Assembly: GCA_001275005.1 (NCBI GenBank)
Contig: JWZX01002871.1
Coordinates: forward strand, 1-53,903
Source: Chrysochromulina tobinii
Lineage: Eukaryota
DNA length: 53,903 nucleotides
Direction of reading: 5' to 3'
The notes under the pieces: generated by a model
What the model was told of the DNA's origin: nothing
The model's input: the letters and a program-made list of their open reading frames with translations, nothing else
Databases searched by the model: none
Part shown: positions 1 through 37,945 of the stretch, in pieces
How the letters are laid out: every line of letters begins with the position of its first letter
How positions within the stretch are numbered: position 1 is the first letter of the stretch
Made by a program: the position numbers and the translations under genes

Positions 1-75
1 GGAACGAAATAGCTCTGTGGAAAGGCCAGGAACCTCAAAGACAAAACCCAGCAGTTCGAATCTCAAAGGGGAAAT

Positions 76-7540: not shown

Positions 7541-9280
7541 ATGGGCAAGGATGATGAAGTAAAAGGCAAACAATTGGCGCAGAAAACGCTGCAGAAGCAC
7601 GCAGACACGCCGTTGGCTGCACAGGCAGGCGCGGGCGGTACTTCCACGGAGGCTCGCTTCCTCGCAGCCCTCCAGGCGATGATGGGCGATGTCGAGCTCA
7701 CGGACGAGAGTGTGAGGCAAGCGATCGCGAAGATGACTCCTGAGCAGAAGCAGCAGCTGATGCAGGACGCTGGCGGCCAGCAGCTCAAGCGCGAGTTGTT
7801 AACCAACGAAGAGACCAAGCAGGACCGCTCGCTCTACTTCAAAGAGGTGAATCGCTCAGCAGAGGCTGCTGGGTTGCCTGTCGACAAGGACAACAGCCAT
7901 CTGACTAAAAAGGTGCGCCGTGCGCAGCGCAGGCTCGCGGCGGCAGCAGCTTGGCCGATATGCGTGCGCTGTCCTTGCCAATGGGCTCCTCATATTAGCT
8001 GATAGCCTGCCTAATGGGCTCTTCATTTTAGCTGATTGCCTGCCTCCTCGGCCACAACGTCGCAGATCTCGAGCTTCATGTTAGGCTCGAGTGACGATCT
8101 GCCGCTGCTGCTTCTTGAGGAAGGCATCGCCTCGACGCCGTATATGGTCAAGGCAGCGCTGAGCGAGGCGCGCAGCGAGACGGCTGCCACCGTCGCGGCC
8201 GACTTAGCCGAGATCGAGACAGCCCTTGCTCTGCTCAAGGTCCATGGATGGGCTGCTGCCGAGACGGCCGGCCGGCCGCCAATCGTGCGGCGCAACCTGC
8301 TGCTGCTGCACTCGCACCTGCATCGCGAGCGGCTCAAGGCGCTCGTGCTGAGCGAAGCGACGAAGATGGCCACCGCCGAGGTGGTCGAGAAGGGCGGCCG
8401 CCTGCTCGATGGGCTCCTCTCATACTCAATCCAGCTGCAGTGGGTCAAGGCGACGCTCGCGATCACCGCGCTGCAGGCGCTGCTGACCAACGGGCTGTGG
8501 GACCACGCTGACGACGAGTGCCGCGCGATCATGCGCACACGCCTCTCCGCGGTCGGTCTCAAGCTACCAAAGCTCTCTCTCCGGTGCACAGCAGCCGACG
8601 TATTCGCGGGAGAGACTGTGACTGTCAAGGTGAGCGCGCAGCGACTGCACGTGTTCACAGCAGCGGAGCTCGAGCGCTACAACGCCACCGCCTCGGGCGT
8701 GCCGGCGGATGAGGGTGCTCCTCCCCAGAGCAACAGTGCCCAGAGCGACAGTGCCCAGGGCGACGCTGTCGTGCGTGTAGCGGACGCGCACGAAGGCTGG
8801 TGGCTGCTTGTGGAATCGGTCCGATCGGCGCTGATCAAGGACGCTCAGCTGATAGACCGCGAGGTGCACCACAACGTGCTGGTGGGCCGGCAGACGCTCG
8901 TACCCAGCCTGGACGACGCAACAATGGAGAGCTCGATCGAGTTCACCGCGCCCTCCGCGCCTGGCGAGTACAGGGTGCTTGTGCACCTGCGCAGCAGCAG
9001 CATGGTCGGCGTCGACGTGAAACGTAAGGTGTCGTTCACCGTCAAGAGCGGCAAGCGTTCACAGCCGTCCACCTCGTCCGGCACCTCAACCGACGATACC
9101 AAGAGCATGGAGGAGATCGATGGGACCATCGCCGACATCATCCAGGAGGAGGAGGCCAGCACAGCGCCCAGCACAGCGCCCAACACAGCGCCCAACACAG
9201 CGCCCAGCACAGCGCCCAGTACAGCGAGCCTCCCTACCGCGACGCCCTCACCTGCCGCGCTGGCCGTGCCGGTCTCATGA
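7541..9280 (+). CDS. Protein with Sec63-like C-terminal domain, two exons (7541-7912, 8066-9280)
   Basis: EGWWLLV...IEFTAPSAPGEYRVLVHLRSSSMVGVDVKRKVSFTV resembles the Sec63/Brr2 Ig-like end. The phase-0 GT-AG intron 7913-8065 joins the two ORFs. No J domain or transmembrane helices seen. Confidence 0.65.
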
Positions 9281-10030: not shown

Positions 10031-11411
10031 ATGTCGAGCAGCACCATGTATCAGACGGCGCCAGTTGCGCATGCTGAGCCTATCGCGCAGGGCGTGCCCA
10101 TTTATCATGAGTCTTCGATGCCACTCTGCGCAGTGCAGGACCACCCCATGCCGGCGGTGCATGCAAGCGAGGCGCTGCAGGCGCTAGCTGGGTGCGGATT
10201 CCCGAGAGGCCTCGCGTCAGAGGTGGTCAACAGCGCTCACAACTCCTTTCCCATCCGCCTCTGGATAGTCGATAATTCCGGCTCCATGCAAACCGGGGAC
10301 GGCTCGCGCATGGTCCAAACCAGCAACGGTTCTTGCCGCATGATACAGGCGACGCGCTGGCAGGAGTTGGTGGACACCCTCGGAGCCGTCGCCGAGATGG
10401 CGTGCGCGCTCGGTGCGAGGACCGACTTTCTCCTGCTCAACCGTCCCTCGACAGGTCAAGTGCAGTTCGCCACCGTCGGCGGCAAGGGCACGGGCAACGC
10501 GGCGCTCGTGCCCGTGTTGGGTGCGCATCTCGAGGCTAGGCAGGTGAAGCAGGCGATGCAGCAGCTGCAGCCGAGCGGCGGTACGCCCCTCACAGAGGCC
10601 GTCCTGCAGGCATGCAACCTCATTGAGATCGCGGCGCCTGCGCTGCTTGCGAGCGGCCAGCAGGCGGTCGTCACCCTCGCCACCGACGGCCTGCCTAACG
10701 ACAACGACACATTCATGCTTGCGCTGCAGCGGCTGCAACGGCTGCCCGTGTGGCTCGTCGTGCGCCTGTGCACCAACGACGAGGGCGTGGTTCGGTACTG
10801 GTCTGATCTCGACCAGTCACTTGAGATGCCACTCGAGGTGAGAGGATGGACTGGCACTGAATTGCGAAGGGTAGACGCTGATTGCGAAGGGTAGGCGCTG
10901 ATTGCGAAGGGTAGGCGCTGATGAGAGGCACCGATGGCTTCGCTCGCAGGTGCTCGATGACGAGCGCGGCGAGGCCCAGGAGATCTACGCCTTCAATCCT
11001 TGGCTCACCTACGGGCCTCCGCTCCACCGCGCGCGCGAGTTTGGGCTCAAGCATCGCCTGTTTGACCTGCTTGACGAAACCCGGCTCATGCCCTCGCAGG
11101 TGAGTGTGCCCGATGAATTGCGTCTGATGGGCACTGATTGCCTCTGATGAGCACCGGTGATTGGTCTGCCCTCACCTGACGAAACCCGGCTCATGCCCTC
11201 ACAGGCGCGTGAACTCTGCGAGGTGCTTCTCGGCTGCGGCCCATTGCCCGAGCCCGAGCTTGAGTGGAGCGCCTTCGTGAGCGCGCTGCGTAATGCCCTC
11301 CTCTCGGCGCCGTCGACGGTGGACCCGAGCACTGGTCGGAGGCGCGCGTGGATCGACCTGCGGCGCATTGGCCGGCTGCGACCTGGCTACATCGGCTGCC
11401 CGTGCTTGTAG
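10031..11411 (+). CDS. von Willebrand factor A domain protein, three exons (10031-10837, 10950-11099, 11205-11411)
   Basis: MIDAS motifs IVDNSGSM, GGTPL and LATDGLP. Two phase-0 GT-AG introns give a continuous frame ending in CPCL-stop. Confidence 0.85.
11100..11204 (+). other. Intron whose 3' end duplicates the upstream exon end
   Basis: TGACGAAACCCGGCTCATGCCCTC(G/A)CAGG at 11072-11100 and 11177-11205 (1 mismatch), with CTGAT motifs in between. Confidence 0.85.
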
Positions 11412-15149: not shown

Positions 15150-15220
<71 letters not shown>

Positions 15221-15262
15221 CTGCTTCTGCTGCTGCTGCTGCTCGTCCTCCTCCTCCTCCTC

Positions 15263-15341
<79 letters not shown>

Positions 15342-16438
15342 CGCTCCTGCTTCGAGTCGGCGCTCGAGTGCCCCCACGTGTGCGCTAACGGCATGAAGAC
15401 TCGCCACGTCCAGCAAGACTCTACCGGTAAGCTCGCCAGCCGTGTCGAGGTGCTTTGGACGACGTCGATGTCGATGTCCGGCAGCTCGGGCAGCGACGGC
15501 ATGGGCAGCAGGCTGGCGCCTAGTAGGAAGGCAAACGGCGGCAAGGGCGAGGGCGCCGCCGCCGCCGTCGCCTGAGACATCGCGCTGCCGGAATACTCCT
15601 TCGAGGTGGCAAACGTTACTTGGGCAGGGCTGCGCGCCTCAAGACGGGCCATCGCCTCGAGAGCGGTGTAACCGACGCCACGAGGCGTCTTGGCGTCGCG
15701 CGGTCTGCCATTTGTCATGCCGTCGAGCGCGCCCGCACTGCGCGCGCGGCTCGGTGATGCCGGCGATGACGACGCCAGTGGCGGCAGCCCAGGCCAACTG
15801 TGAGAGGCGGCGCGCTGCCGTCCCTCCAGGATGAGACCCAAGCTGTCCGCGCCGGCGACGCTCGCGAGATCGGCTTCGGGGGGGAGCGGCGGAAGGCCCA
15901 GCTCAGGCGGCAACGGCGGGAGGGACGGCTCAGGCGGCAGCGGTGGAAGTCCCAGTTCGGGGGGCAGCGGCGGCAGCACCGGCTCGGGCGGCAGCGGCGG
16001 CATCCAGGACGGGCTCGCGGGGGCGGTCGGGGGCGTGACGTCGGAACTCATGCCGGATGGCAGCGGCGGCATCCACGGGGTCTCCGGCGGCAGCGGTGGC
16101 AAACCAAAGGGCGAGCCAGGGGACTGATCCAGCAACATCATCAGCGAGTCGGGCGAAAAGGCCGCCTCACGGCTGCGTATGGTGGAGGGCAGGTTGGCGT
16201 TCGGTCCGTTGCTGTGGCGGAAAGTGCACCGCTCACCGAAGCGGCAGTAGCCCGCAGCCCAGTACTCGCACACCGGCGCGAGAGGCTGCGCATGGTCGAC
16301 CACGCTGGGTACCCTGGCATGAGTGTCAACGCGCAACACGTCCACTGGCCGTGGGAGTTGGGACTTGAGGATGCGCCCGCCCAACGCCGCTGAGATGACC
16401 GTGGGCGACTGCACAGCGGTACCCCCGGCCTGGGTCAT
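13787..16438 (-). CDS. CCCH zinc-finger protein with proline-rich repeats and polyQ tracts
   Basis: CEYWAAGYCRFGERCTFRH (C-x7-C-x5-C-x3-H); LPPLPPE repeats; long single ORF. Internal introns or two fused genes are not excluded. Confidence 0.65.
15150..15339 (-). repeat. (CAG)n-(GAG)n-(CAG)n microsatellite encoding polyQ-polyE-polyQ
   Basis: Two long CTG runs on the + strand separated by CTC repeats. Confidence 0.95.
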
Positions 16439-18060: not shown

Positions 18061-18250
18061 GACGCCCGACCTCGTTCACGTCCGACCTGTCGAGCCAGGT
18101 TCTCCGCCAAGGTTCTCACGGCGTTCCACACGGGGGATTGCAAATTTATGCCGTTACGAAACTTAGCTCAAATGCGCAAATGACCTGACCTGACGTGGAG
18201 GGGTGACCGATTGGCGGGAAGAGCTGAGCGCCCGCCCACGCGCGCCAACT

Positions 18251-21200
18251 ATGGGTGGCGACGCGGGTCGATACGAGCGCGTCTCGCTGCTGGGCAAGGG
18301 TGCGACAAGCACTGTTTATCGTGCACGCCGGCTCAGCGACGGCCGTCACTTTGCATATAAGCTCGTCAAACTTACGGGCTTCTCAGAGGTACAGCGTGCA
18401 GAGATCCTCAACGAGGTCGAGTGCATGACGCGCCTGCACCATCCAAACGTGGTGTCGTACGAGGAGTCGTTCGTGCACAGCGATCATCTGCACATTGTCA
18501 TGGAGCTGCTCTCGGGCGGCGACCTGGCCCGCGAGGTTGAGTCGCGGTCAAGTGGCCCCAACGGAGAGCGGCCGCCGGCGTACCTGGATGAGGAGGTGAT
18601 CTGGTCGATCTTGGTGCAGGTGTGCGAAGGGCTCCACCACATGCACTCGGTGCGCGTGCTCCACCGGGACATCAAGGCCGAGAACATCTACTCTGACGGC
18701 CGCGGTGCAGTCAAGATCGGTGACCTTGGCCTCGGGCGGCTGCTGTCGACGCAGTCAACGCATGCACGCACAGGTGTGGGCACGCCGCTCTACTTCTCGC
18801 CCGAGATGTGCGAGGAGCGCCCGTACAACGCCAAGTCGGACGTGTGGGCACTCGGCTGCCTCGTGTACGAGCTGTGCTCGCTGCAACCGCCCTTCCTCGC
18901 CGCCAACCAGCTCGCGCTCGCACGCAAGATTATGACGGCGACGCCAGCGTCCCTCCCGAGCCACTACTCGCGCGAGCTGCAATTCCTCGTGATGAAGATG
19001 CTCGAGAAGGACACACAGCGCCGCCCGACGGCCGCCCAGATCCTCAACTACTCGCCCGTCCGCTCGCGTATTCCGAGCGTCCACGCACGCTGCCCGCAAC
19101 TCAACCACGCTCGGGACGACGCTCGGTCGGCCATCGCGGCTGCTGCGTGCGGCGGGAGCGGTGGCGGCGGGTGCTGCGGCGGCGGGGAGAGCGGCAGAGG
19201 CTCGGCTGGGAGCGCGGCGTCGGAGCTGCACGCGGCTGCGGCGATCTCATGCGACAGCGACAGCCTCATCGAACTCGCGGCTGAAGAGGAGAATGTCGAC
19301 GAGAGCGCTCTCTCCGCTCTCGTGACGCCGCCTCGCTCGCTCAACGCCCCACCCGCTGCCGAGCCCGTGATCGCCGAGGTGATCGCCGAGGTGGCCGCCG
19401 AGGTGGCCGAGATCGTCCGAGATCGTAACGAGATCGGACGAGATCACCACGAGATCGCCCAGCCCGCCGCCGAAGTGGCCGAAGCGGCTGCGGCGCGGGT
19501 GGCTGCAGCGCACGCCGAGGCGGCGCAGAGCACTTGCATGCAAGGGTACCCTCCTCCGACGGAGTACGCGGCCGCGCGCGCTCTCGAGCGGGCGATGCTC
19601 GAGGCAGTGGATGCCACTGCCGCTGAGATGAACCTCGCTGGAATGCCGATGAGGACCCCGGCTCCAAGGGTGAGGCCAGGAGAGGCGTCGCCGCCGGTGA
19701 CGACGATGGTCGAGATGAATGCCCTCCGCAGCGCCAACGGCCGCCTCGACAGCAGCAGCATCGACGACAGTGGCACACACGGCCGGGATGCGCCGAGCAG
19801 CTCATCCTACTCCAACGACAGATCTCGGGACAATCTCGACAGATCTCGGGATGATCTCGGCAGCCCTCCCTACCCCTCCACACCCCAACGGCAGAGCGAG
19901 CGCGCCGTCGAGCCGCGCCACGTCACGCCGCCGCCCGCGTCCCCCGGCGGCTGGTCGTGCGCGAGCGGCGCTGGCGGCGGCGGCGTGGACAGCATGTCGT
20001 CCACGCCGCGACCCGGCAGCGCGACTAGGGTGCGTTGCCGGTGCATGAGCGGAGGGGGCGGCGCTTCGTCAATGGCCCCTGCGGCACAGGCCGGCATGTC
20101 CCCTCGGATCGGGAGTGGTCCCAATGACGGAGGTGCACGGCTGGCACGCGCTGCGCTGCTGCCGAGGGTCGGCGAGGTGGAGGACATTGTCGAGGCCGCT
20201 GAGACTACCTTCGAGGCTGCCGCTGAGGCAGGCGCCATGACGAGCGCACAGGTACCAGCATGCGGAGAGGGGGAGGGTGCGCTCGAGACGGCGCTCGATG
20301 AGGCGACTCCGTCGACGATCATGGTGGCGACGGCAGAGGTGAGCACCCCTCCGGGAAGGGCCGCCGCTGCGACGGACACCACCCCTGGACGCGAGGCGAG
20401 CATTGAGAGACGAGCTGTGAAAGGCGGACTTGTCTCGCCTCCGCCACCCGGCGGCGCGCGCCTCACGACCCCGATGACGGTGGCGGCCACGCCCACCAAC
20501 GGTGACGGTTCGCGCCGGCGCCGCCACCGCCTGACGCTTTCAGTCACAGAGCCCTGCCTGAGCTACGCGAGCCCGCCTGGCGCCGCCACTGGCGGCGCCC
20601 TTGCGGCGGGCAGTGCCGAAGGCGTGTCCGAGACGAGTGCGGCCATGGATGCGCGCGAGCTGCCCGAGGCGGCGCGCGCGCGAGAGAGGCGTACTTTTGA
20701 GGCGGCGGAGCCGAAGTACACGTGGCCCACGCCGCAATCCGTCTTCACACCGCCGCAGCCCATCTTCACGCCGCAGCTCTTCCCCACACCGCCCCGGCCC
20801 ACTGCCCACAGCCAGCCACAGCAGCCGTCCCCTCTTGCGCCCAATGCAGCGCCCAATGCAGCGCCCAGTGGCACCACCATCCCGAGCTGCGCGGCGTCCA
20901 TTTATAGGCGCGCGTCGCACCGGCACAGCGCGCTCCAGATGGAGACGAAGCTTCGCGAGGCGGCGCAGGACGAGGCGGCAGGGCTGCGGGAGCGCGTGGC
21001 GATCCTCGAAGGCCGCTTGGCGCGCTCCGAGCGCGAGCGGCGCCAGGAGGACGCGGCGCACCGCACCGCTGTGGAAGCTCTCCGTGTGGCGCGTGTCGAC
21101 CTCCTCCGTCAGCTGCAGGCCCAGTCGAGCCAGCTCGCCCAACTCACCTCCGAGCGGCTCGCCTTCGAGCACCTCGTGCCCACTCTGGAGGTACGCCTCG

Positions 21201-22657
21201 AAGAGACCCTCGACTCCGTTGCGGAGCTCAGCAAGGCGCTCAGCAAGGCGCTCGAGCGGTGCGCCGAGCCAGGCGCCGAGCCGGGCGCTGAACCGGGCGC
21301 CCGGGCAGGCGCCCGGGCAGGCATGGACTGGTCGCCAACGCGCCAGTGGCACGTCAACGTGCCCATGCCCGCGATTGGCATGGTCGATCCGCCTGAGAGG
21401 CAGCGGGCAGACACGGCCCGCGCAACGACCGCCGACGCAGCAACGACCGCCGACGCAGCAGCGACGGCCGACGCAACATCGATGCCACCCCGGCGCGAGT
21501 TTCCATCGTCCCTCTCGCAGCGCATGGGCTCGCTGAGCTCGTCTCTGAGCTCGAGCTCTCGAAGCAACGATGGGCTCGACGGTCAGAGAGCGCTCGGCAC
21601 AGCGCTCGGCGGCGCGGGCGGCGGCGCGCTACTGCACGTCGAGGCTGCCGAGGTGCGTCACTCGCATCATGCAAGCCACACGCACCCCTCCACCGGCTCT
21701 TTAGACGCTCCCGAGGTCGCTCCTCCGGTCGCTGGCGAGGCGACCCCAACGGCCACGTCGTCAGCTGTGGCCGTTGAGGCGACCCCAACGGCCACGTCAT
21801 CAGCTGTGGCCGGCGCCCAGGTACCGCAGCCAGCTCCGCCAGCCGTCGCTGTTCACACCGGAGCCAGAGCGGTTCACACCGCCCCGATAGCCGTCGAGCC
21901 GTTACCTATCGCGCCACCGCTGGCGCCGCTCCTTCCAGAGCTGTTCACACCGTTCCGCTTCACGCTGCCTCCCGCGTGCCCGTCGCCAACGGCAGCCTCG
22001 CGCTCGGGTTCTTCCCTCGCAGGCCGCCAGTGCGCGGCGGCCTGCCCGATCGGCAGCCGACCGCCCTCATCCTTGGGCCTCACAACGAACGGCAGCCGGC
22101 CGCCCTCTTCGCTCGGTTGCCATGTCGACTCGCTTGGCTTGCTATCCGATCCGATCCCGTGCACGCCGCCACTCGGGTCGACCGGCGAATGCCCAGGCAC
22201 GAGCGCCGCCTCGAGCGCCTCTCGGCTTGGCTCTCCTCTGACGCTCTCGCCGCCGACGCTCTCGCCCCTCACCCTCTCACCGCGCGCAGCCTCGCCGCCG
22301 CTGTTCACACCGGAGCAAGAGCCTCATGAACAGACGGAGGCGGAAGCGGCGTACCGCTTCACGCGGCGCGAAGACGCCTTTGCAAAGCGCGACCTGCTGC
22401 CTCGAGACGACCTGCCGGACGCCATCGCCGCCGCCGCCGCTGCCACCAAGGCTGCCGCCGCGGCCAAGATTGAAGCTGCCAAGGCCGCCTTCCTGCGCCC
22501 GGCACAGCGCCCGTCCGCCATCCCCGTGCCCGGTCGCCGCGCGGCGTCGGTGCCGGCGTCGCCCGCCGCTGTGCACTCTCCTTCACCCACCCATGCCTCC
22601 ATCTGCGGCGAAAGCCTCTTCAATACAGGCTCGCTCCTCTCCTCGCCACGCCAGCAA

Positions 22658-22694
<37 letters not shown>

Positions 22695-23998
22695 ACAACA
22701 ACAACAACAACGCCAACGCCGCCAACGCCGAAGGCGCCGCCGCCGCCGATGGCGTCGGCACGGGCGGCGGCGGCGATGCAAGGTCTCGCGAACGCCATTC
22801 CAACGCACCGGCGACCGATCGCAGCGCCGGCACGCCGGCGGAGGAGCGTGGCGGAAGCGAGCTCCGACGGTCACACGGCCAGCAGCAGCTACGAGCGCTT
22901 CGCCGCTCGTCACAGCGTCACGATCCACACCGTCGCTCGCCGCCGCGCCGTCGTGGCGGTGCCAACTCGGCGCCTTCCACGCCCTCCAGGGCCTTTCCCG
23001 CCTCACCCGCCGGAGTTCACCAGGCGGCGTCCGCCACCGCCACTGCCGCCGCCGCCGCCGCCGCCGCTGCCGCGTTGCCCTCCTGGCTCTCCGCCGGCCG
23101 GCCGCTCGCCCCTGGCATGCCTCCGTCGGAAGGTGCCGATGTGGAAATGACGACGCTGCGAGGCTCACGCGACTTCCGCGCGCTGCTGCCGGTGGTGCGA
23201 GCCGCGGCGCTGCTGCTGCCCCCGCTCGCGCTGCCCGAGGGCCACGAGGCATTCCACCTGCTCTACGCCTGGCGGCGTCAAGGGCTGCGCCTGCCCACGC
23301 AGTTGCAGCCACCACCCAACCACGCCGCCGAGGCTGGTCTCAATTGGCTCAACACGGCGCCAGGATGGGTCAATCGGCAGCGCGTGCAGTTGCTGCAGGG
23401 CGCGTCGTCGCTCCTCATCCTCTATCGTGCTAGCGGCGTCGGCGTTGGCGTCGGCGTCGGCGGCGTCGGCAGCGTTGGCGTCGGCGGGGACGGCGGCGTA
23501 GGCGGCGCTGCCGATCGCGCTCGCGACGGCGCTCGCATCGGCGACCCGACGGTGCCGATGGTGCGCGTGCTTCGTGTGCGCTTCCGTCACGAAGCTACCT
23601 TCCGCCGGCTCAAGCTGCCCGAGCCGCTGCCGCTCCCATCCTCGGGGTGGCGCTCCAAGCCGAGTGAGTGGCACGTCATCAGCCTTGCGCATCCGCTCAC
23701 GCGACACCGCGAGATCGTCGAGCTCGGGCTTGAGTTTGACGAACCGCAGCACATTGAAGAGCTGCTCGCCATTCACTCCTCCGCCGCGCTGCTACGCGCC
23801 ACCATCCTGCACGCACGCTCGTCGGCCCGCGCCGCCGCCGCGGGCGGCGACGCCGGGGGTGCTGGCGGCGCGGCGCGTAGCAGCGCGGCGAGCGGCGTTG
23901 CGATGAGCCTCTCGGCTTCGTCAATCTCGGCTTCGTCCATCTACGGAGGCGAAAGCCTCTTCAATACAGGCTCGCTGCTCTCCTCGCCACGCCAGCAA

Positions 23999-24036
<38 letters not shown>

Positions 24037-25606
24037 CGCCAACGCGCTCTCCGCTGCTGCCCCTGCTGCCGGAGCCGTCGATCTCCCCGTCGATCTCCCC
24101 GCCGTCCCCGGGACGAAAAGCTTCGCCATCGGGAGCAGCCCCGCGCCAGCCGCGCTGCCGTCGGTGCCGTACGGCTGGGTTTCGCACGTTTCGACGGTCA
24201 GTTCGCCCGTGAGTCACCATCCAAGCTCGCCCAACTTGTCTACCGCTTCTCCCTTTGGAACCCATGGTCTGCCGCCAGCGGGAGCCTCGCCGTTGCACAG
24301 CCACCGCAGCTCGACCAATGGCATCAATGGCACCAATGGCACACTGCCGATGGCCTCGTCGTACGATCGCTTCTCGCCGATGGCCTCGCCGCTGTGGCGC
24401 CCTTCGAAGCCGCTGCTGGATACTTCGGGTTCCGGGTACCTATCATCCGCCGACGGCTCTGCATGCAACAGCCCGTGCGTGGCCGCCACGCCAGCCTTTG
24501 GCGCCCCCTCGTCGGCAGCATCCTCCGCCACCGCCTCCCCTGCCGCTCTGGCGCTGCTGAAGGCCAAGCACCCGCCTCGAGCGGGAGCCACGGGCGGCGC
24601 CGGCGCGAGGTTCAATCTCGAGGCGGAGGTTCAATCTCGAGCGGGAGCCACGGGCGGCGCCGGCGCGAGTGCGCAGGGCGCGTCGCCGAGCGTTGCCGTC
24701 CCAGAGCAGTCCGCTCTGTCGTCAAAAGAGGCGGAGGGATCGGCTGGGGTGCCTGCGCTGGCTGTGGCGCCGGCTGAGCGGGCTGAGGAGCAGGAGGCAA
24801 CATGGATGACTCACACCAGCGTGCCGTCGGCGCCCGCGCTGCCGCTGCCCCTGACACGTCAGCAGCGCGCCGAACTGCGCTTGCAGAGGCGGCAGCACCC
24901 ACCATCGACACGGCCGCCGCCACCCGCGCCGCCGCCGGCTGCAGCCTCTGCTGAGAGCAGTCCCGCCAATGACGTCAGCGGCAGCCGCACTGTAACGGCC
25001 GGGAGTGCCGCGGCGCCAGCGCTCGTCCCGTCGGCGCTCGACACAGCGCCCGCCCCGTCGTTCCCCCCCGCGCAGCCAACGGCCGTGGCCTTCCCCGAGC
25101 GGCATGGATGGGCAGTGGCCAGTTCACAGCCACGGGAGCCGTGGCTGCCCGGGCCTGAGGCTGCAGCGGGAAGTGCCGCCTCGCCCGAGGCGTCGGCCGA
25201 GGCTGCCTGCGCGGCTCTGCTGAGTGCGGCTGGCGGAGCGAGTGGCCCGAGCGGTGCAGGAGCTGTGGGCAGCTGCGCTGAGCGCTTCAAGCGCCTGATG
25301 CTCGAGGAGGCTCGTCGTATGGATCGACAGCAAGAGCATCAGCACGGCCATAGCCACAGCCTGCACGCCCCTGAGAAAGGCCAGCCGGGCACGCTGCCAC
25401 CGCACCTGTCGCTGGCGCCGCTCTCGCCGCTCTCGCCGCTCGGGGAGAGGCGGCAGCGGCATGAGAGTGAGGAGGACGAGGAGGAGCGCCAAGAACTGAT
25501 GCTCGAGCTGCGACGCTTGCGCGCGGCCGCCAAGGAGAGGGAACGTATGGCTGCGGCGGGCGTCGCTGCCCAAGCGGCAGCAGGAGGAGCAGCAGCAACC
25601 CGATGA
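18251..25606 (+). CDS. NIMA/NEK-family Ser/Thr kinase with a very long low-complexity tail
   Basis: LGKGATSTV, AYK, HRDIKAEN, DLGLGR, GTPLYFSPE, PYNAKSDVWALGC; coiled coil near 20940-21260. Confidence 0.88.
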
Positions 25607-27178: not shown

Positions 27179-27466
27179 AGGGATGAGCGTGACGCGCGAA
27201 CCACGTGCCGCAGTGCCACAGAGGCCAATTTCCGTGCGTCTCCCGTGAACGTTAACACGACAGACGCGACAGCCCGTGTGCTGTTCGTGTCATAGTGGAG
27301 TTGCGATTAATCTCCTCGATTGACGAAACTTGATTTTCCTTTGACAAACTTGTTATTGGCTCGGATAGAGAGCAGGAGGCGAAAGGCGCTTCGGCATTGC
27401 CGTCTACCAGCTCCAGCTCACTACAGCACACGCTCTAGCGCGGCTCCAGCTCACTACAGCACACGC

Positions 27467-30400
27467 ATGCCGCGTGACGACAAGACTCCAAGGAAAAAGA
27501 GCGAGGGAGGCAAGAAAAAGAGAGGCGGAAGCAAGAAGAACACCGATAAAAATGCGACAGTTCCTAATACGCCCGAAGACCTTGACGAGGGTCAACACAG
27601 GCCGAACTGGCTGTCGGATGCCGACATGGAGGCGTGGGCGTCCGATTTAGGTGGGCCGTCCAGCGAGGCGGATGGCGCGTCGCTGGGTGAATTGACGTTG
27701 TTGGAGGAGTCATTCGAGCCGTGCTCACCTGATGTTGACGTGCCGAAAACAGCGCCGCCAGCAGCACCGGCAACAGCATCAGGCATGTCGCCATATCTGG
27801 GGTCGCTCGCGGCCATGCGACCGTCCGTGAATTACTTCGTGCGCATTTGCTCCAGGCCATCAACACTCTCAGTCAGCTCGGCTCCCGCACCAGCGGCGAG
27901 CGATGCAGCCGCCGCAGCACCGACAGCAGCCGTGCCTCCTTCCCACAAGCCCTTCCGCGTGGGTGAGCATGGCTTCGCCCTGAATCCTTTCTTCAAGGAT
28001 GGGACACGGCTTCGGATCGACCCCAAGGTCGAGTCGGAGTTTAGCGACCAGTTCATCCTGAATGACCACGAGGTCGAGATTCTCGAGATCTCGGGCGAAG
28101 GATTCGTGCGGATTCGGGCAGCGGGTAAGGACGCCGATGACGGGGCCGAGGGCTGGCTACGTGAGACCAACCTCTCCCGTATCGAACGCAAGGCTGGGCT
28201 TGTCGGCGTGGAGGAGCTGGCGCAGATGGCCGTGGACGCCCTTGCGACGAGCGAAGTCAATGTGCGCGAGCTCGAGGCACAAGTGCGCATGGGGCACACC
28301 GAGCTGCTGCTTCGCGACGAGATGCTCGCAGATCGAGATAGCGATCTGGCTGAGCTTCGTGAGGAGCTCGCAGCGATGGAAGTGAAGCTGGCTAAGGTGG
28401 CGCACCTGGCGAGAGCGCCTCACGGAGAGGATCCAGAGCCGTTGGCCAGTGCGGGCGCCACGCCAGAGGCCCGGTCGGTACCGGTGGCCCAGTCAGTACG
28501 AGCCGAGCCGCCCTACGTCGCGCACCAAGGCTCGCCACGAAGATCTCCCATGCGGCGATCCGGCGGCGTTCATGGCGGCGAGGCCGAGTTCCAGGTTGGT
28601 GATAGGGTGTACATGCTGAACCCGTACTTCACCGATGGGACGCGGCTTCGAGTACGCCCCGATCAGGATGCCGACTTCAATGAGCAGTTCATCCTCAACG
28701 ACGCACCGATTGAGATCGTCGCGATTGAGAATGGCTTCGCGAGGGTGCGTGATCTGGACCATCCAGATGCCGAGGGCTGGGTCCGAGAGCGCAACCTGGC
28801 GCGCCATAAGCGCGAGAGCGGGCTGGCCAGGGTGCGCCGGTCACTGCTGGAGCATGGGAGGAGCGCATGGGAGGAGCGTCAGTCACTGCCTGAGCATTCT
28901 TCCGTCTCATCCGCTGCTGAGCATTCTTCCGTCTCGTCTGCTGCCGCCCCGTCGGCCGCCCCTGCCGCAGACGCAGCGGCGGCTCCGGCGGCGGCTCCGA
29001 CGGCGGCTCCGGCGGCGGCCGTGCGCCGACCGGACGAACAGATCTTGTCGAAAGCGACCTCTTCTGCCTACGAAGCCGCGACGAAGGCGCAGCGCATCGA
29101 GGAGCGAGCCAGGGAGATTGCCCATCAGCTCAAGACAGCGCTCGAGAAGGCCAATCTGAAGACGATTGAGCTCTTCCGGGACTGTGATGAGGATCGCAAT
29201 GGGACGGTCGACAAGAAGGAGTTCCAGACGGCGATGCTGCGCCTCGGAGTGCAGGCCACCAAGGAGGATCTCGCCGCCGTCTTCGATCGGTGGGACACGA
29301 GTAGCACGGGTACTTTGGACTTCAAAAGTTTCGACCACGCCATCCGGAGCGTCAAGGTCGTCCCGCCCGTCGAGACTGCCACGACCGCTAAGGACATCCA
29401 AAAGGCGCTACGAGAACGCATGCAAGGGAAGAAGACCGCCTTGCCACCCGCCCAGCCGCCGCCGCGCCCGCCCGCGCGCCGGCCAGCCGGAGGTGGCAGG
29501 GAGGAGGCGGACGAGAGAAAGGGCGGCGCGCAAGTGGGCCAGGCGGCGGTCCGTCGGAAAAAGGAGGAGAAGAAGGTAGAGGAGGGCGAGGGGCAGCAGT
29601 GGAACGTGGCTCAGTGGCTGCAGTCCCTTGCGCTGCACGACGTGGTCGCTGCTACCCTCGAGCTTCCGGAGGCTGGCCAGAAGCAGTTTCAATTTATGCG
29701 CGCGCTGGAGCGACCGCGGCTCGAGAAGCTGCTGAACGAGTCAGATCTGATCTCGAACATGTGCGACGTGATCATGGAAGGTGCGCGCTTTCTCACAAGC
29801 AGTGACCGAGGCAGCACCGTCGCCAACGACAAGTTCCAGGCGAGCGGCAAGTTCCAGATGAGCTATGGCTCGCTGAGCCTCTTCTACGGCGGCCTCGAGT
29901 CGCTCATCGGGCCGCCCAAGATGCTCAAAGGGTCCCTTTTCCACTCGATGGAGCAAGAGCATACGGGGGAGAGGGACGCGCGGTGTGAGTTCACCACGTC
30001 GAATGGCGTCACGTCTACATCGGCGATGGAATGGGAGGTGGTCATCAACCCGAAGGAGGAGACACGAGGCAAGTTTCGGGACCATGGGCTCGAGATTTAT
30101 CCGGAGCGCAAGGATTTTCGCGAGCTGTATCCCGACTGGTGCCGCGCGATCCGCCCAATCGACGAGATGATGGGCGTGATGGAGACGGAGTGCAATGCAC
30201 GGCTGCGCCACGAAGGGCACACGGAGCTCATCCGCGAGGAGCTCGTCGGCGGGAGATTGTACACGGGGCCCTTGTACGCCAAGTACAATGCGGTGCTTCG
30301 CTCCAAGTCGGGCGACGCGTGGCTCGTCGAGCAGTGTAAGCTGCTCACGCTGGGCAACACTTACACGACGACGATCCACGCCATCAACTCGTGCGTCATC

Positions 30401-32116
30401 AAGCTGTCGAAGCTGACCAAGGCAGTCAAGGTGTGGCGCGGCATCAAGGATGCGAAGCTGCCCAAATCATTTTGGGTCGCGAATTCGATGGGCGTGCGCG
30501 GCGGCATTGAGTACGGCTTCTCGTCGACGACAACTGATAAGGAGCAGGCGCTGCACTATGCCGGCGCCGAAGACGCCCATACTCATCACTTGTCGACGGT
30601 CTTCGAGATGCAGATGGGCATGGTCGACCGCGGCGCCGATCTGACGTGGCTCTCGCAGTACCCACACGAGCGCGAGGTGCTGCTCCCGCCTCTGACCGGC
30701 TTGGAGGCCCTTGAGACGCGCGTCTCGAGCGGGATGCTCGTCATCCAGGCGCGCCTCTCGCTCAACATGGCTGCCCACACGCTCGAGCAGGTGCTCCCCT
30801 CTGATGACCTCTGATGACCTCTGATGACCTCTTGATGACCGCTTGATGACCGCTGATGACCTCTGATGACGCTCGAGCAGGTGCTCCCCTCTGATGACCT
30901 CTGATGACCTCTGATGACCTCTGATGACCTCTTGATGACCGCTGATGACCTCTGATGACGCTCGAGCAGGTGCTCCCCTCTGATGACCTCTGATGACCTC
31001 TGATGACCTCTTGATGACCGCTGATGACCTCTGATGACGCTCGAGCAGGTGCTCTCGCGCCGTCGCAAGATGCTCATGGACATGCGCGATGGCATCGGGC
31101 TCGAGCTGCGCGACGTGCTAGACACCAAGCTCGCGCCGTTTAGCGTGGACGTCCTCTCGCACGCGATGGATTTCGACGCGCTCAAGCACGAGCCCGAGTG
31201 GTTCAACAACGACGAGAACTTTGCGAAGGTGATGCAGTCGACGCTCCGGCTGCAGCATAACATCGTCAAGGAGGCGTCCAAGCTGCACGGTCATCTCGAG
31301 AAACCCGAGATCTCCTTTCACAAGTGGGCGGAGCGCGGGCTACACGGCTCGCGTGCCACGATGCTCGTCGGGTGGGTGCTCACACGGGATGCGAGTTTGA
31401 CGAATCCCGTCGACGTGGCCCTCGATCTGCGGGATGCGAGCTTGACGTCCGAAGATGGCCTCGTGCTCGCCGAAGCGTTTCGGACCATTGAGACGATCAC
31501 CTCGATCGACGTGCGGGGCAACCCAGCCCTTGAGGGCGAGGCCGTCGCGGCGATCGTCGAGGCGATGAAGAACGAGAAGCCTGGGAAGCCGCGCTCCATC
31601 TGCGGCGTCACCCCACAGAACACGAGGCTCGAGGTGCCACGCAACTTTGCGGGCGCGTCGGAGTCTGTCGACACGGCGCTCATCGTCGCAGAGCTCGAGA
31701 GCCACTTTTACTCGGAATCGGTCACTGCGGGCATGGGCGGCCCCGTCTCCGTGGACGTGGTTCCGCTCAACCGACGCGGCGGGTTTGGCGCGGCCGAAAA
31801 GGGTGGCTGGCTGCCGCTGATCTGGGCCGCTAAGATGAACCACATGCAAATTGGAAGGCAGATGATCCGTAACGGCACCAATGTCAATGTACAAGAGCCG
31901 GCGGGCGCAAAGTCGAAAAAGTACACAGCGCTCCATCAGGCGTGCTATCTGGGGCATCTTGAGTTTGCGAAGATGTTGCTTGACGCGGGTGCCGACCAGA
32001 GCATCCAGGACGTGTCTGGGCAGACTGCCAAGCAGATTGCTGACAAGAAGGGCCACACGCAAGTGACCAAACTCCTCGAGGGGTATAAAGCCCCGCAAAA
32101 GAAGCGCGCGGCGTAG
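27467..32116 (+). CDS. Multidomain mono-ADP-ribosyltransferase: 2x SH3-like, coiled coil, EF-hand pair, ART, degenerate LRR, ankyrin repeats; exons 27467-30790, 31049-32116
   Basis: R-S-E motifs VWRG, GFSSTT, SQYPHEREVL; EF loops DEDRNGTVDKKE and DTSSTGTLDFKS; ankyrins PLIWAA and TALHQAC. The intron 30791-31048 restores TLEQ|VLSRRRK. Confidence 0.85.
30791..31048 (+). other. Compound intron: three GT...AG units of (CTGATGACCT)n separated by copies of the exon junction
   Basis: ACGCTCGAGCAG|GTGCTC at 30779, 30869, 30958 and 31037; units of 90, 89 and 79 nt. Confidence 0.9.
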
Positions 32117-32600: not shown

Positions 32601-35600
32601 ATGTTTCTGGACAGACTTCGCGTATCGTCAAGTCTCGCGGGCCGGCCGGCGCGCGCTCTCGCGGAAATCTCTTCACTGGACGGCGGAGAGAAGACTTCAG
32701 GGCATACCCCAGGATTTCTGGTCTTCACACGTGTCTTGACTTCACTTGTCGTGTCTCTCGCGGAAAATCTCACATCCTCTGGACGGCGGAAAGACCCTTT
32801 TCGCTTGACCAGCTATCGGACAATGTCTCGGCCGATTTCGACTCCATCGTGCGGCGCAGTGCGGCCGGCGTCGCCTCCTGCAAGGAGGTGCTAGGCTTGA
32901 TGCGTGCTCGACAGGCCACTGAGGAGGCGTACGGACAAGCACTGCTGAAGCAGGGCCGCAGCGCCGCCGGCCTCATGGGTGCCACTCCCGACGCTGATCG
33001 AACCCGCCACCGTTGTGTTTGGGCTCTCACGGTGCTGTCTTTCGTCCGTCTGCAGAGCGTGGCACGTGCCGGATGGGTCTCGTCGCCTTCAAGTCCCAGT
33101 CCGAGAAGAGCGCCGTGCTGCACATGCAACTGGCTGCACATCTCTCTGCGGATGTGACGGCGCTCACCTACCTGCGCGATCGGTGCGCCAACGCACACCG
33201 CGCGCTTGTCGCCGAGAATGCCAGCCATGTGCGCGACATGCGCACGAGCAAGGCGGCGCTGCAGAAGGCGCGCGCATGGCACGCCCGAGCTACAAATGAG
33301 TTGGATGCGCTCGCGGAGCTGGAGGGCTCTGAGCTAGCTGGCGAGGAGGGCGGCACGGCCGCATCGGTGTCACCCCCGCCGGTCAGTGCGTCGAGCCGCG
33401 CCTTTGCTTCGGCCATGCTCGACGAGCCGCCGTCTCCGGACCTGCGCAGAGTGAACACGGACCGCGCGCTGCAGCTCGGACTGCGTGAGGTCGAGGCAAG
33501 CTCTGCAGCGCTCAGTGAGAGCCTGCGTCAGCACCTCGAGGCGGTGCGCCTCATGAGCGCCTCGCTGCCCAAGCTCCTCTCAGGCTTTGAGCGAGGCGAG
33601 GGGCAGCGGATTGACTCGATCAAAATGGCTTTGAAGAAGCTCATCAATGCGCAGGTGTGAACTGGGGCGCTGCGAAGCACTGCCTTCGACGACGCACCCT
33701 GCACCCAGTACCCTTCCCCTCCCCTTCCCTCCCCCCCCTCACCCCCTCACCCCCTCACCTCCCCTCCCCCCCCTCTCCCGTTGCAAACCCCTTCTGCTCG
33801 CCCTCTCCTACTCCACCGCCGCAGGAGGCCATGCTCTCGCAGCAGCGCCCTTCGCTCTATGCGACCGCAGACTTGGTCGACGCGATCGATCAGTGTGAAG
33901 ATGTCTCCTCGTTCACACGCGACCTCTCCTCCGCGCAGCAGGCGCACCTGATCGTGCAGCTCATCGACGAGCAGGCACGCCAGCTCCGCCACCTCGATCC
34001 CAAGCACCCAATGGGCCCCGATACCCACCTGCCGTTACGCCCACTCGTACCCGCCGTCGCCTCGAGGACCATGGTAGCTGGCGCTGTCGCGGGCACAATG
34101 GTCGGTGGCGTGGCGGGCGGCGTGGCGGGCGCGGTCGCGGGCACGATGGTCGGCAGTGTGGCGAGCACCGTCGCCAGCAGCATGGCCAACCGACTCGGGG
34201 AGAGCGTCGCAGGCACCGTGGCCAGTAGCATGGCCCACAGAGTGGCGGGCAGCGTCGCCGGTACTGTGGTGAGTGGCGGGCTAACTCGCGCGGGTGAGAC
34301 CATGGCCGCCGCGCGCGCGGCCGCGGCCGCCGCTGCCGCCGCTCCGATGGCCAGGCTAGGGGATAGCGTCGCGGGCAGCGTCGTTAGCGGCGGCTTGACC
34401 CGTGCAGGTGCAACGACTTCTGATGACCACTGATGACCTCTGATGACCACTGATGAGCCCTGATGACCTCTGATGATCACTGCAGGTGCGGCGATCGCCG
34501 ATGACCACTGATGACCTCTGATGACCACTGATGAGCCCTGATGACCACTGATGACCCGTGCAGGTGCGATGATCAACGATGACCACTGATGAGCACTGAT
34601 GAGCCCTGATGACCTCTGATGACCACTGATGACCACTGATGACCCCTGATGACCTCTGATGACCCCTGATGACCCCTGATGACCTCTGATGACCCCTGAT
34701 GACCTCTGATGACCTCTGCAGGTGCGACGATCACCGCCGCCCGTGCCGCCGCCGCCGCAGTCACGGAAGATCCCGTGGCCGCAGCGCGCGCCGCCGCCGC
34801 CGCCGCCTCCAGCGCCGCCTCCAGCGCCGCCTCAGGAGAGGTTCCGAATCTCAAGGCGGTGGATCGGGCTGTGAAGGTGACGAAGAATCGGCTCGTGCGC
34901 AATTCGCACGACGAGCTCGTCCTTGAGGGCGACACGAAGGTGAGGATCGAGCCGCTCGGCCACGGGAGCGGCGGTAGCGGCAGCAGCAGTGGCGGTGGCG
35001 GCGGCGAAGGGAGCGGCAGCAGCAGCGGCGGCAGCGGCAGCGGCAGCAGTAGCGGCCCCGGCGCGTCCGTCCCCGCCACGAGCATCGGTGGTGGCGGGCT
35101 CGACCGGCCCGACATCGAGCTTAGCATGCAAGTGCAGCACGCCGCCCTGTTCACGAGCTCAGCCGACGCGCTCGATGCGCCGCTGGGCATCAACCTGACC
35201 GTGGTGCTCGTTGGCGCATCGGGCGCCGTCGCGGGCGGCCACGCGGCCGTCGAGGGCGCCGTCGAGGGCGCCGTCGCGGGCGCCGTCGCGGGCGCCTCGG
35301 CAGTACAGAGGCTCGATCTCGAGATCGGGAGCTCGCCAGATCGCATCTCGTGCGAGCTCGTGTGCGACGCGCCCACGTTCGTGGCCATCGCGCGCGGGCT
35401 ACTGCCCTCCTCGGTGGCGGTCCTCACCCGCCTGGCGAGTACCACCAACCTCGCGGCGCTCCTCGCGCTGCAGCGGGCACACGTGTGGGAACGCGAGCGT
35501 TACATCTCCTTCGTCGCCGAGAGAGCGTGCGCCGCGCGTAACCGACGGCGCGCGGAGCCGTTGGGAGCATCCACGGGCCCAGCCACTCCCGCCCGGAACG

Positions 35601-35609
35601 GCGCCGCAG

Positions 35610-35645
<36 letters not shown>

Positions 35646-37945
35646 CCGCTCACGGGCTCGGCGCTCATCACGACGCGCACGACGACGCGCACCACGCGCA
35701 CCACGCGCACCACGACGCCGACGCCGCTCTCATCGAGGGTCTCAAGGCTCAGATGCGCCGACGGGCGGAGGAAGGCAGCAGCGGCGCCGCCGGTGCGGGC
35801 GCAACCACGTACGGCCTCGTGGGCGATGGCCTTGCAGGCAGCCTTGTGGGCCGGATTATCGGCGCGATCTCAACGGTCGAGAGCCTGCGCACGAGTGAGA
35901 ACGAGCGCAAGGCCGTCTGGGGCCAGTTGCGCTCCCTCACGCTCCGTGGCCTGCGCGGCGGCTACGTCGATGTTTCGTCACGAGCTGCGGCGGTCGACGG
36001 CAGCGCCGCCGAGGGCGCGAGCGCCGTCCCGAGCGCTGAGGGCGACCCACTCCGACCCGCAGCGGGCGACGTGGCGGACATGGCAGATTTGGATCTAGAG
36101 GCACAGAAAGAGCTTGACGACGCGAGCTTGCGCGTGCACCTGGGCGGAGATCTCGAGCTCGCGCAGGGCTTCCTCTTCATGCCGCACGCCTTCCTGGGGT
36201 GCGACTGGACCGGCCCTCGACCTCGCATGCTGATTGCATGCTGATTGCATGCTGATTGCATGCTGATTGCATGCTGATGGCCTCCCTCATCAGGTGCGAC
36301 TGGACCGGCCACGTGCACGTGAGCGTCGCGTACCAGCATGGCGTCCATCAGCTCACCATCAGCGTCAGCCCGCAGGCGGCGAAGCTCCTCGCAGGTCTCG
36401 TGGGAGGCGCGCCGATGCTGCTCGTGAGCGCCAAGCGCGACGTGCTGCTCGATGTCGTGGCCGGCAAGCTCGAGGCTACCCGCGCCGTCATCACCGGCCG
36501 CGTGCAGGTGAGCGACCTGGGGAAGCTCCTCGTATTCAAATCGGCCTTCCTGATTGCATGCTGATTGCCTCCCTCATCAGGTGAGCGACCTGGGGAAGCT
36601 CCTCGTGTTCAAATCGGCCTTCCGGCTCAAACGCGCCGTCTTCGACGCGTACAAGGCGTCCCTCCAGCTCACACAGCAAGCACGTGCCACGCCAGAGCAT
36701 CTCGACCCTCTCACCAAGCTCCAGCGCTCGCCGCCCAGCGCCGAGCTCCTCGCAGAGTTGGGCATGCTGCTGCCGGCCCCAACGGTCGGTGGCGCGAGTG
36801 CGTACGCCAGCTCTGAGGGCGGTGCCTTCGAGCTGAGCGAGGCGCTGCTGTTCGCTGTGTACGCGTTCACAGCGACCGATTGGACCGGGGACGTCCTCTT
36901 CAATCTGAGCAGCGAGCTCAACCCGAGCAGCAGCGTGGCCACAGCCGCCACGGCCGCCACGGCCGCCACGGCCGCTATGCTCTCGTCCAGCACACCGCCC
37001 CGAGTCTCGAAATCCGCCTCCGACGGCGCGGCGGTCGCCGTGCTCTTCCGCCTCTCTCCGAGCGGTGTCCGGCTGATCGTCGCGCCTGTGCGCTTGGCCA
37101 GCGCGCCAGCGTGCAGCGTGGCGTGCGAGCGGCGCGTGCTGCTGGCGGTGCTCACTGGCGACTTTGAACTGACCGCAGCGCTCATGAGCGGCCAGATGCA
37201 CACGGATAACTTCGTCTCGATGATGAAGTTCAAGCGCGCCTTTCAACTCGATCGAGGTGCATGGCGCGAGTTCCAAGCCTGGCGGCGTGCTGATTGCATG
37301 CTGATTGCATTCTGATTGCATGCTGATTACATGCTGATTGCATGCTGATTGCCTCCCTCATCAGGTGCGTGGCGCGAGTTCCAAGCCTGGCGGCGTGAGC
37401 ACGCCACACCGCCGGCGCCGGGCGTCGAGATGCTGATCGATCTGAGCTCTCCCATCAAACTGGCCGCACCGCTGCCCGCCCCACCGGCGACGCCGCCGCC
37501 GCCGGCCACCGCGACGATCAGCCCACCGCCCGCCGCGGCGGACATTGGCCTTGAGCGGCTCGTGGATGACGCCGAGCTGTACATGGCCGCGTCGTACCTG
37601 CCTGTGGCCTTCGAGGCCTCGTCGATGGACATCGGGGTCCTGTGCCAGCTCTCGCGGGAGGACGGAGCCGCCCCGCGCACGCTCGGGATATGGGTGAGTC
37701 CAGCGGGAGTGCGTGTGTACGCGGACGAGGAGGCGCCCAAGATGCCGGCGGTGACGTGCAACATCAGCTGCGAGCGCGAGGTGCTCATGCAGATCATCCG
37801 AGGCGAGATGGAGGCGACGAATGCGATCATGTCGGGCTTGGTGATGGTGGACGACCTTGGGCAGCTGATGGCGTTCAAGATGGCGTTCAAGCTCGAGCGC
37901 GCCACCTTCGAAGAGTACCTCGCCAAGTCGAAGCGCGGCGCATGA
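32601..37945 (+). CDS. F-BAR (FCH) domain protein with three C-terminal SCP2-like sterol-binding domains; ~8 exons, 5' end uncertain
   Basis: FDSIVRRSAAGVASCKEVLGLMRARQATEEAYGQALLKQ and ERGTC...HMQLAAHL are F-BAR-like. Three repeats of ..G.LE...A...G.V.V.DLG.L..FK.AF.L are SCP2-like. Frame-restoring introns: 32979-33055, 33655-33824, 34408-34721, 36199-36293, 36508-36580, 37257-37364. First exon 32601-32621 and intron 32622-32812 are tentative. Confidence 0.7.
34408..34721 (+). other. Compound intron: three GT...AG units of (CTGATGACCH)n with diverged junction copies
   Basis: TGCAG|GTGC at 34403-34411, 34481-34489, 34559-34567 and 34717-34725; units of 78, 78 and 158 nt. Confidence 0.85.
36199..36293 (+). 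other. Intron = 17-nt exon duplication + (CTGATTGCATG)n + GCCTCCCTCATCAG
   Basis: GTGCGACTGGACCGGCC at 36199 and 36294; removal gives FLGCDWTGHVH. Confidence 0.9.
36508..36580 (+). other. Intron = 43-nt exon duplication + short CTGATTGCATG array + GCCTCCCTCATCAG
   Basis: 36508-36550 equals 36581-36623 with 1 mismatch. Confidence 0.9.
37257..37364 (+). other. Intron = 33-nt exon duplication + (CTGATTGCATG)n + GCCTCCCTCATCAG
   Basis: 37257-37289 equals 37365-37397 with 1 mismatch; in-frame stop inside the intron. Confidence 0.9.

What the first reader, a model, noticed from the sequence alone, without database searches (positions are those of the whole stretch)
36199..37397. Candidate intron-generating system: variable-length exon duplication + CTGATTGCATG array + fixed 3' end
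Seen: three introns in one gene (36199-36293, 36508-36580, 37257-37364) share one build. Each starts with a near-exact copy of the downstream exon start (17, 43 and 33 nt; 0, 1 and 1 mismatches). An 11-mer array of variable length follows, then an identical GCCTCCCTCATCAG end. The duplication supplies the GT donor, the insert supplies the AG acceptor, and splicing restores the coding sequence with no scar. Known: described Introner elements mostly behave as non-autonomous DNA transposons with short target duplications and defined termini. Inference: a fixed right end, a variable left end and long variable duplications fit target-primed reverse transcription of an RNA ending ...CAUCAG (possibly an intron 3' end), or templated repeat synthesis at a staggered break. 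Low divergence implies recent events.
Basis: partly seen in the sequence, partly recalled or inferred. Interest (0 to 1): 0.9.

Follow-up and report, generated by a model that had tools for sequence, protein, structure and literature searches.

The report
Introns seeded by upstream neighbour introns
Three spliced introns in one gene of a likely haptophyte alga are each built from a copy of the next exon's first bases plus a repeat-rich intron tail, and related cases suggest such introns are newly made by copying a nearby upstream intron of the same gene, possibly through its RNA, which would be a readable, ongoing route of intron gain.

Summary
Observation confirmed. The three introns carry 17-, 43- and 33-nt copies of the downstream exon start (0, 1, 1 mismatches), an 11-mer array and a shared 14-nt end. 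RNA contigs splice them out; DNA contigs keep them. They belong to a large family: 49 of 103 distinct family ends in metagenome loci carry such a copy, against 0 of 600 shuffled pairs; copies are 13-51 nt. The scan noted this family before on another piece of this genome (e1-2577349) and read it as a mobile element. New here: (1) one precise presence/absence case in DNA, whose filler matches an intron 438 nt upstream and which is spliced; (2) fillers match an intron of the same contig piece in 15 of 40 cases, 2 expected; (3) the donor is upstream in 9 of 10 assignable pairs; (4) microhomology at the copy/array joint. Best reading: local, polar copying of an upstream intron's 3' tail, likely RNA-templated (0.45); DNA template switching is close behind (0.30). 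No reverse transcriptase or transposase was seen nearby; no whole genome was available.

The parts
36199..36293 (+). Intron 1, 95 nt, GT-AG: exon copy 36199-36215, 10-nt spacer, 11-mer array (36225-36278), fixed end 36280-36293
   Evidence: spliced in 3 of 3 RNA runs
36294..36507 (+). Exon whose first 17 nt are copied into intron 1
36508..36580 (+). Intron 2, 73 nt: exon copy 36508-36550 (1 mismatch at position 27), short array, fixed end 36567-36580
   Evidence: spliced in 3 of 3 RNA runs; site read through without insert in raw ORFs P0008 and P0032, which keep introns 1 and 3
36581..37256 (+). Exon whose first 43 nt are copied into intron 2
37257..37364 (+). Intron 3, 108 nt: exon copy 37257-37289 (1 mismatch at position 5), 11-mer array (37288-37352), fixed end 37351-37364; filler best matches intron 1
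   Evidence: bridged in RNA contigs of X16 and X17
37365..37945 (+). Last coding exon with stop; first 33 nt copied into intron 3
34703..36198 (+). Long upstream exon of the host gene; homologs carry an N-terminal FCH/F-BAR domain and SCP2 sterol-carrier domains; gene start not mapped
   Evidence: Pfam on homologs P0014, P0007
34408..34721 (+). Three head-to-tail intron-like units with 10-mer arrays and a repeat spanning AG|GT, likely in the same gene; related build, splicing not tested

Best explanation
These are real spliceosomal introns that were likely gained recently by copying the 3' tail of an intron lying upstream in the same gene into an exon site, probably with that gene's own RNA as template. 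Shown: splicing; the build (exon copy + array + fixed end); its recurrence in many genes; one precise filled/empty pair; local similarity of fillers; microhomology at the left joint. Inferred steps: (1) a nick or staggered break forms in a transcribed exon just before G(T/C); (2) the 3' end of an upstream intron RNA (just excised, or in the nascent transcript) is joined to or primes at that point, which fixes the right end at AG; (3) copying runs into the array and stops at a variable place; (4) the left DNA end, extended 13-51 nt past the site, is joined through 1-4 nt of microhomology with an array unit, leaving the exon-start duplication; (5) the duplication gives the donor GT/GC, the tail gives branch-point-like CTGAT motifs and the AG, so splicing restores the coding sequence and the allele survives. 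Nascent RNA holds only upstream sequence, which would explain the polarity. Each new intron can then seed the next; simple tandem duplication adds twins and array length changes.
For: Splicing. Family: 49 of 103 ends with copy vs 0 of 600 controls; 99 of 103 ends followed by G. Gain: L032 has a 79-nt intron that L060 lacks precisely, while both keep the neighbouring intron; the new filler shares a distinctive 20-nt stretch with the intron 438 nt upstream, including the base that marks the L032 allele; it is spliced in 2 of 2 RNA runs and lies in one DNA contig. Local donors: 15 of 40 with p<=0.05, 2 expected; 12 of 55 near pairs vs 457 of 9519 distant pairs; all best matches on the same strand. 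Polarity: of 12 significant pairs, 10 had at least half the filler explained; donor upstream in 9 (two-sided p 0.02); the one exception is an internal twin without a GT start. Mirror/spanning classes show no such local signal (1 of 18). Microhomology mean 1.58 vs 0.39 nt, n=19 of 56. Host gene on the motif strand in 19 of 19 loci with Pfam hits. Raw ORFs of close relatives show forms with intron 1 only, 1+3, 1+2(+3) and none, consistent with the most upstream intron coming first; distant relatives on 287-kb and 42-kb contigs read through the sites.
Against: No RT, endonuclease or RNA intermediate was shown. Polarity rests on 10 pairs, with a threshold and recipient rule set after seeing the data; the window's own pair (introns 1 and 3) is a near tie (0.75 vs 0.79) and intron 2 fits either neighbour. 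25 of 40 introns had no significant local donor in the 1-7 kb held. 14 of 56 copies are adjacent twins, and mirror (about 12 by eye of 19 raw), spanning and intron-internal exon copies exist, which DNA-level duplication explains without RNA. Fillers (30-206 nt) run past the last branch-like motif, so a lariat tail alone is too short. The empty alleles come from short-read assemblies, where a 30-nt direct repeat could collapse, or the intron could have been lost by recombination between the repeats; the raw ORFs' DNA was not seen and haptophyte RNA often retains introns (PMC4028052 passages). The class B test used another method and has low power.
Confidence: 0.45

Rival explanations
1. Same local copying and real gain, but with DNA as template: microhomology-guided template switching (replication slippage or polymerase-theta-type end joining) in which a 3' end slips onto an array unit of a nearby intron, copies through AG|G and returns 13-51 nt short. 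Selection keeps only sense, splice-competent products.
For: One process would give all classes: twins (14 of 56), mirror and spanning forms and dispersed copies. Microhomology at the left joint. Templated insertions with duplication from nearby DNA are known outcomes of break repair (PMC7407515 passages). Some donor/recipient pairs share 4-6 exon-start bases.
Against: A symmetric break-repair model predicts no polarity (9 of 10 upstream seen). Distances of 200-2800 nt exceed the within-200-bp templates quoted. Exon-start sharing is not raised overall (p 0.11). No local donors for the mirror class.
Confidence: 0.3
2. Old intron positions remodelled: a tandem duplication across an existing acceptor, then loss of the older 5' part, so the exon copy is secondary and no new intron position arises.
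For: True for the twins and for exon copies inside introns. Arrays are unstable between strains.
Against: Does not explain L032/L060, where nothing of an older intron remains and the sister assembly is empty, nor fillers shared by introns hundreds of bases apart, nor read-through in distant relatives' genomic ORFs.
Confidence: 0.13
3. A non-autonomous mobile element (introner, SINE-like) with a fixed 3' end, spread in trans from master copies by a retrotransposon or transposase.
For: Fixed end in many unrelated genes; summed contig depth over the array/end is 19,000-40,000 against about 45 on exons (a rough sign of high copy number only); variable duplication and 5' truncation resemble target-primed insertion (recalled). 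Something must carry the end between genes.
Against: Fillers follow the neighbourhood, not a master sequence; almost no end lies outside a splice context (99 of 103 followed by G); no terminal inverted repeats or fixed duplication length; no RT or transposase domain near the ends; none in viral or prokaryote collections.
Confidence: 0.1
4. Assembly artefact at repeat arrays.
For: All DNA evidence is short-read; X9 may be the window's source.
Against: Copies differ from the exon at single bases; raw ORFs from many contigs read into the same copy-plus-array; RNA skips exactly these lengths; the same intron is in three assemblies of different name series (L006, L032, L060).
Confidence: 0.02

Closest known systems
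Introners / introner-like elements (PMC9860276, passages; PMC12130899, passages; bioRxiv 10.1101/2020.10.14.339549, parts 1-2 of 4)
   Same: Many similar introns; one splice site carried, the other taken from the duplicated target (as Symbiodinium and Polarella classes 4, 5, 6, 8, 10); scar-free splicing. A Chrysochromulina sp. introner is pictured in PMC9860276.
   Different: There duplications are fixed and short (3-9 bp) and similarity runs end to end; the pictured Chrysochromulina family has 4-bp duplications and carries its 5' site. Here duplications are 13-51 nt, only the 3' part is shared, the body is a minisatellite and it follows the neighbour intron. That survey filters out low-complexity and part-length similarity, so it would miss this.
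Intron gain by staggered double-strand-break repair in Daphnia (PMC4202315, passages)
   Same: New, polymorphic introns with a direct repeat shared with one adjacent exon.
   Different: Repeats there are 4-12 bp and the source of the insert is mostly unknown; here 13-51 nt with an identifiable donor intron and a fixed acceptor end.
Tandem genomic duplication of AGGT-containing exon sequence (PMC3443670, passages)
   Same: Duplicated exon sequence supplies splice sites; matches the spanning class and the twins.
   Different: In the focal class the acceptor comes from another intron, not from the duplicate; 20 of 42 dispersed copies are not preceded by AG.
Intron transposition / reverse splicing into R-loop DNA (PMC4540971 passages; PMC3443670 passages; Oikopleura via PMC4122922 passages)
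   Same: Sense-only, within transcription units, template an intron RNA; the R-loop model would favour sites near the donor.
   Different: Those models insert a whole intron cleanly; here only the 3' part is copied, with a long duplication and a microhomology joint.
Target-primed reverse transcription by non-LTR retrotransposons, and one-step retrohoming of linear group II introns (both recalled, no call)
   Same: Exact 3' joint, ragged 5' joint with microhomology, variable duplication.
   Different: No poly(A) tail, no encoded or neighbouring RT seen, donors local.

Membership tests
Spliceosomal intron | GT-AG ends, removed from RNA, present in DNA | tested here: met
   (intron 3 in 2 of 3 RNA runs)
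Introner | Many introns of similar sequence in unrelated genes | tested here: met
Introner | Similarity reaching both splice boundaries | tested here: not met
   5' ends are site-specific exon copies or unrelated
Introner | Presence/absence showing gain | tested here: met
   one DNA pair; indirect raw-ORF patterns; collapse or secondary loss not excluded
DNA-transposon-type introner | Fixed short target duplication and terminal inverted repeats | tested here: not met
   13-51 nt, variable; only a 5-6 bp hairpin within the 3' end, not consistent across the three folds
Non-LTR retro-element (TPRT) | Fixed 3' end, variable 5' truncation, variable duplication, 5' microhomology | tested here: met
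Non-LTR retro-element (TPRT) | Autonomous RT/endonuclease partner with the same 3' end | tested here: inconclusive
   none in 94 locus ORFs and 19 window ORFs; no genome held
Non-LTR retro-element (TPRT) | Copies dispersed regardless of gene, strand and donor position | tested here: not met
   99 of 103 before G; 19 of 19 sense; local donors; selection could hide exonic exceptions
Tandem-duplication intron | Both splice sites from a duplicated AG|GT | tested here: not met
   focal introns take the acceptor from the tail; met by the spanning class
RNA-templated or reverse-splicing gain | RNA-DNA intermediate or RT dependence | not testable with these tools
   needs experiment

The most novel reading that the evidence does not exclude
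[quoted passage not shown] Introns thus seed new introns in cis, upstream to downstream, with no transposon: a host-encoded, self-propagating intron-gain route that is still polymorphic in natural populations.
Probability: 0.3. Interest if true: 0.93.

Novelty: new variant of a known kind. Interest (0 to 1): 0.8.

Why it matters
The source of most newly gained introns is unknown (stated in PMC4202315 and PMC3443670 passages). Here donor, target, both joints and an empty allele can be read for single events, in a lineage with many such introns. That makes the choice between RNA-templated and DNA-templated gain testable by counting donor positions in one genome. It also shows a class that published introner screens discard by design, and it explains array-derived junk at the ends of automatically called proteins.

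Tried and rejected
Viral and prokaryote scans for the end: 0. A codon model for orientation was dropped: one training exon was out of frame; the ORF list for the Pfam scan came from that script and is not exhaustive. Homolog search at near length for exon 3 found nothing. Freshwater run X21 holds no usable cover of L032. L002/L004 and L054/L118 gave array-length or flank differences, no clean filled/empty site. An early idea that absence of intron 2 follows one haplotype failed: P0032 has the window's haplotype and lacks it. Donor direction for mirror and spanning classes: inconclusive. Exon-start sharing between neighbours: not significant. No relation between copy length and filler length (n=31). 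Folding: only intron 1 beats shuffles (z -2.1). One search gave 14 of 34 local matches without correcting for the number of neighbours and was replaced. Replitrons (PMC10288648 passages) considered: no Rep gene or terminal direct repeats seen. Ten literature searches found no description of this build; the library lacks most subscription papers, Denoeud 2010 and Read 2013 were not held, and I did not open the supplements or family lists of the introner surveys, which may list related haptophyte families. PMC4580454 and PMC12480563 (passages) say nothing on such introns.

Full report
Observation. The end occurs only at these three places without mismatch. Removing them gives one frame; homologs carry FCH and SCP2 domains. 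The only named homolog is from a Prymnesium sp. genome bin, and the published Chrysochromulina tobin genome has 63.4% GC, like the window; I infer a haptophyte, and Chrysochromulina is a guess partly from recall.

Splicing. Contigs of three RNA runs skip introns 1 and 2 (3 of 3) and intron 3 (2 of 3; the third contig ends there). The DNA run has no joined form for introns 1 and 2 and holds both copies of each repeat; it may be the window's source.

Family. Of 242 matches, 125 were the last end before exon-like sequence with enough flank, 103 distinct. 99 of 103 are followed by G (74 GT, 17 GC). 49 of 103 have an upstream copy of the exon start, against 0 of 600 shuffled pairs. With a looser end, 56 of 139 passed a stricter score: copies 13-51 nt, median 25, 33 perfect, 97.5% identity overall; 14 of the 56 sit directly behind another family end and are head-to-tail twins; of the other 42 only 22 are preceded by AG. 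At the copy/array joint the copy's last bases match the array's expected preceding bases more than other exon positions do (mean 1.58 vs 0.39 nt; 19 of 56 testable). In all 19 loci with Pfam hits a hit lies on the motif strand (one also has a neighbour gene on the other strand); no RT or transposase domain in 94 locus ORFs or 19 window ORFs.

Gain. L032 and L060 are two assemblies of one PPR gene, about 98% alike. Both keep one family intron; L032 has a further 79-nt intron with a 28-nt exon copy that L060 lacks precisely. Its filler begins with a distinctive stretch found in the intron 438 nt upstream and shares the base that distinguishes the L032 allele from L060 and L006. It is skipped in both RNA runs laid and lies within one DNA contig. 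For the window gene, raw ORFs of close relatives run into or through the sites in different combinations: introns 1+2 (P0030, P0031, P0033-35), 1+3 without 2 (P0008, P0032), neither 2 nor 3 (P0001, P0009), none (P0007), and P0006, which starts at exon 3 and lacks 3. More distant ORFs on 287-kb and 42-kb contigs read through all three and two sites. Their DNA was not seen; partly spliced RNA, repeat collapse or later loss can mimic absence.

Local donors. For 40 duplication-bearing introns with another family intron in the same contig piece, the best filler match was local at p<=0.05 in 15, 2 expected, after allowing for the number of neighbours; reciprocal hits reduce these to 12 pairs, 202-2781 nt apart except one at 160, all on one strand. 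An independent pair measure gave 12 of 55 near pairs against 457 of 9519 distant pairs. Taking as recipient the member whose filler is better explained, and dropping 2 pairs with under half explained, the donor is upstream in 9 of 10 (p 0.02); the exception is an internal twin. These rules were set after seeing the data, and 25 of 40 introns show no local donor in the DNA held.

Other classes. An unbiased repeat scan also found mirror introns (copy of the upstream exon end at the acceptor; 19 raw, about 12 real by eye), repeats spanning AG|GT (23 raw, with false hits) and exon copies inside introns. Many are twins of an adjacent intron, so plain DNA duplication across splice sites is common here. 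They show no local-donor signal (1 of 18; low power, different method).

Mechanism. Shown: splicing, build, recurrence, one filled/empty pair, local similarity, microhomology. Inferred: a break before G(T/C) in a transcribed exon is repaired with the 3' tail of an upstream intron of the same gene; the right joint is exact at AG, the left joint ragged, and the 13-51 nt duplication supplies the donor. I favour an RNA template (0.45) because nascent RNA holds only upstream sequence and an intron RNA ends at AG, and because the local signal is specific to the 3'-end class. DNA template switching (0.30) explains all classes at once but not readily the polarity. Remodelling of old introns (0.13) holds for twins. 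A trans-acting element (0.10) is not excluded and something must move the end between genes.

Comparison. It works like an introner whose 5' site comes from the target duplication (bioRxiv 10.1101/2020.10.14.339549, parts 1-2 read; PMC9860276 passages) but fails end-to-end similarity and fixed short duplication, and would be filtered from that survey; non-LTR-derived introners are reported (PMC12130899 passages), details not seen. It resembles Daphnia break-repair introns (4-12 bp repeats, source mostly unknown), AGGT tandem duplication and the R-loop reverse-splicing model, each only in part. Ten searches found no description of this build; coverage of the literature is incomplete.

Verdict. 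Real, recurrent and likely ongoing intron gain with readable local donors; a new variant of known intron-gain routes, mechanism open between RNA and DNA templates. Interest 0.8.

Noticed in passing
window 34408-34721 (+): Three head-to-tail intron-like units with 10-mer arrays, each bounded by a diverged repeat spanning AG|GT; likely the same gene as the finding. Splicing not tested.
   Followed up: partly
window 30791-31048 (+): Three head-to-tail units with 10-mer arrays and an 18-nt repeat spanning AG|GT.
   Followed up: partly
window 11100-11204 (+): Mirror-type intron: its last 28 nt copy the end of the upstream exon (1 mismatch). Neighbour 10838-10949 has a 20-mer array and no duplication. 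Splicing not tested.
   Followed up: partly
window 7976-8045: Two copies of a 33-mer with CTGAT-like motifs in a likely intron.
   Followed up: no
window 67-396: 14-mer tandem array that shifts from one unit type to another along its length; unrelated to the intron arrays.
   Followed up: no
window 27311-32116 (+): Gene with EF-hand, SH3-like, ankyrin and a weak ADP-ribosyltransferase-type Pfam match (E 2e-6).
   Followed up: no
window 15150-15351: About 67 triplet repeats inside a long minus-strand frame with a CCCH zinc finger.
   Followed up: no
window 19408-19457 and 19816-19863: Short 10-mer arrays inside the long kinase frame 18194-25606; not introns by frame.
   Followed up: no
L008 minus strand, end at index 1520: Perfect duplication starting GG rather than GT, filler identical to an intron 390 nt upstream; a clean cut is not possible at the usual place.
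   Followed up: partly
L072/L073: An upstream intron contains a stretch like the exon-derived copy of an intron 1249 nt downstream; a possible downstream-donor case or an internal gene repeat, not resolved.
   Followed up: partly
L011, L018, L059, L061, L062: Runs of 2-5 head-to-tail intron units with no exon between them; whether they splice as one intron or recursively is untested.
   Followed up: no
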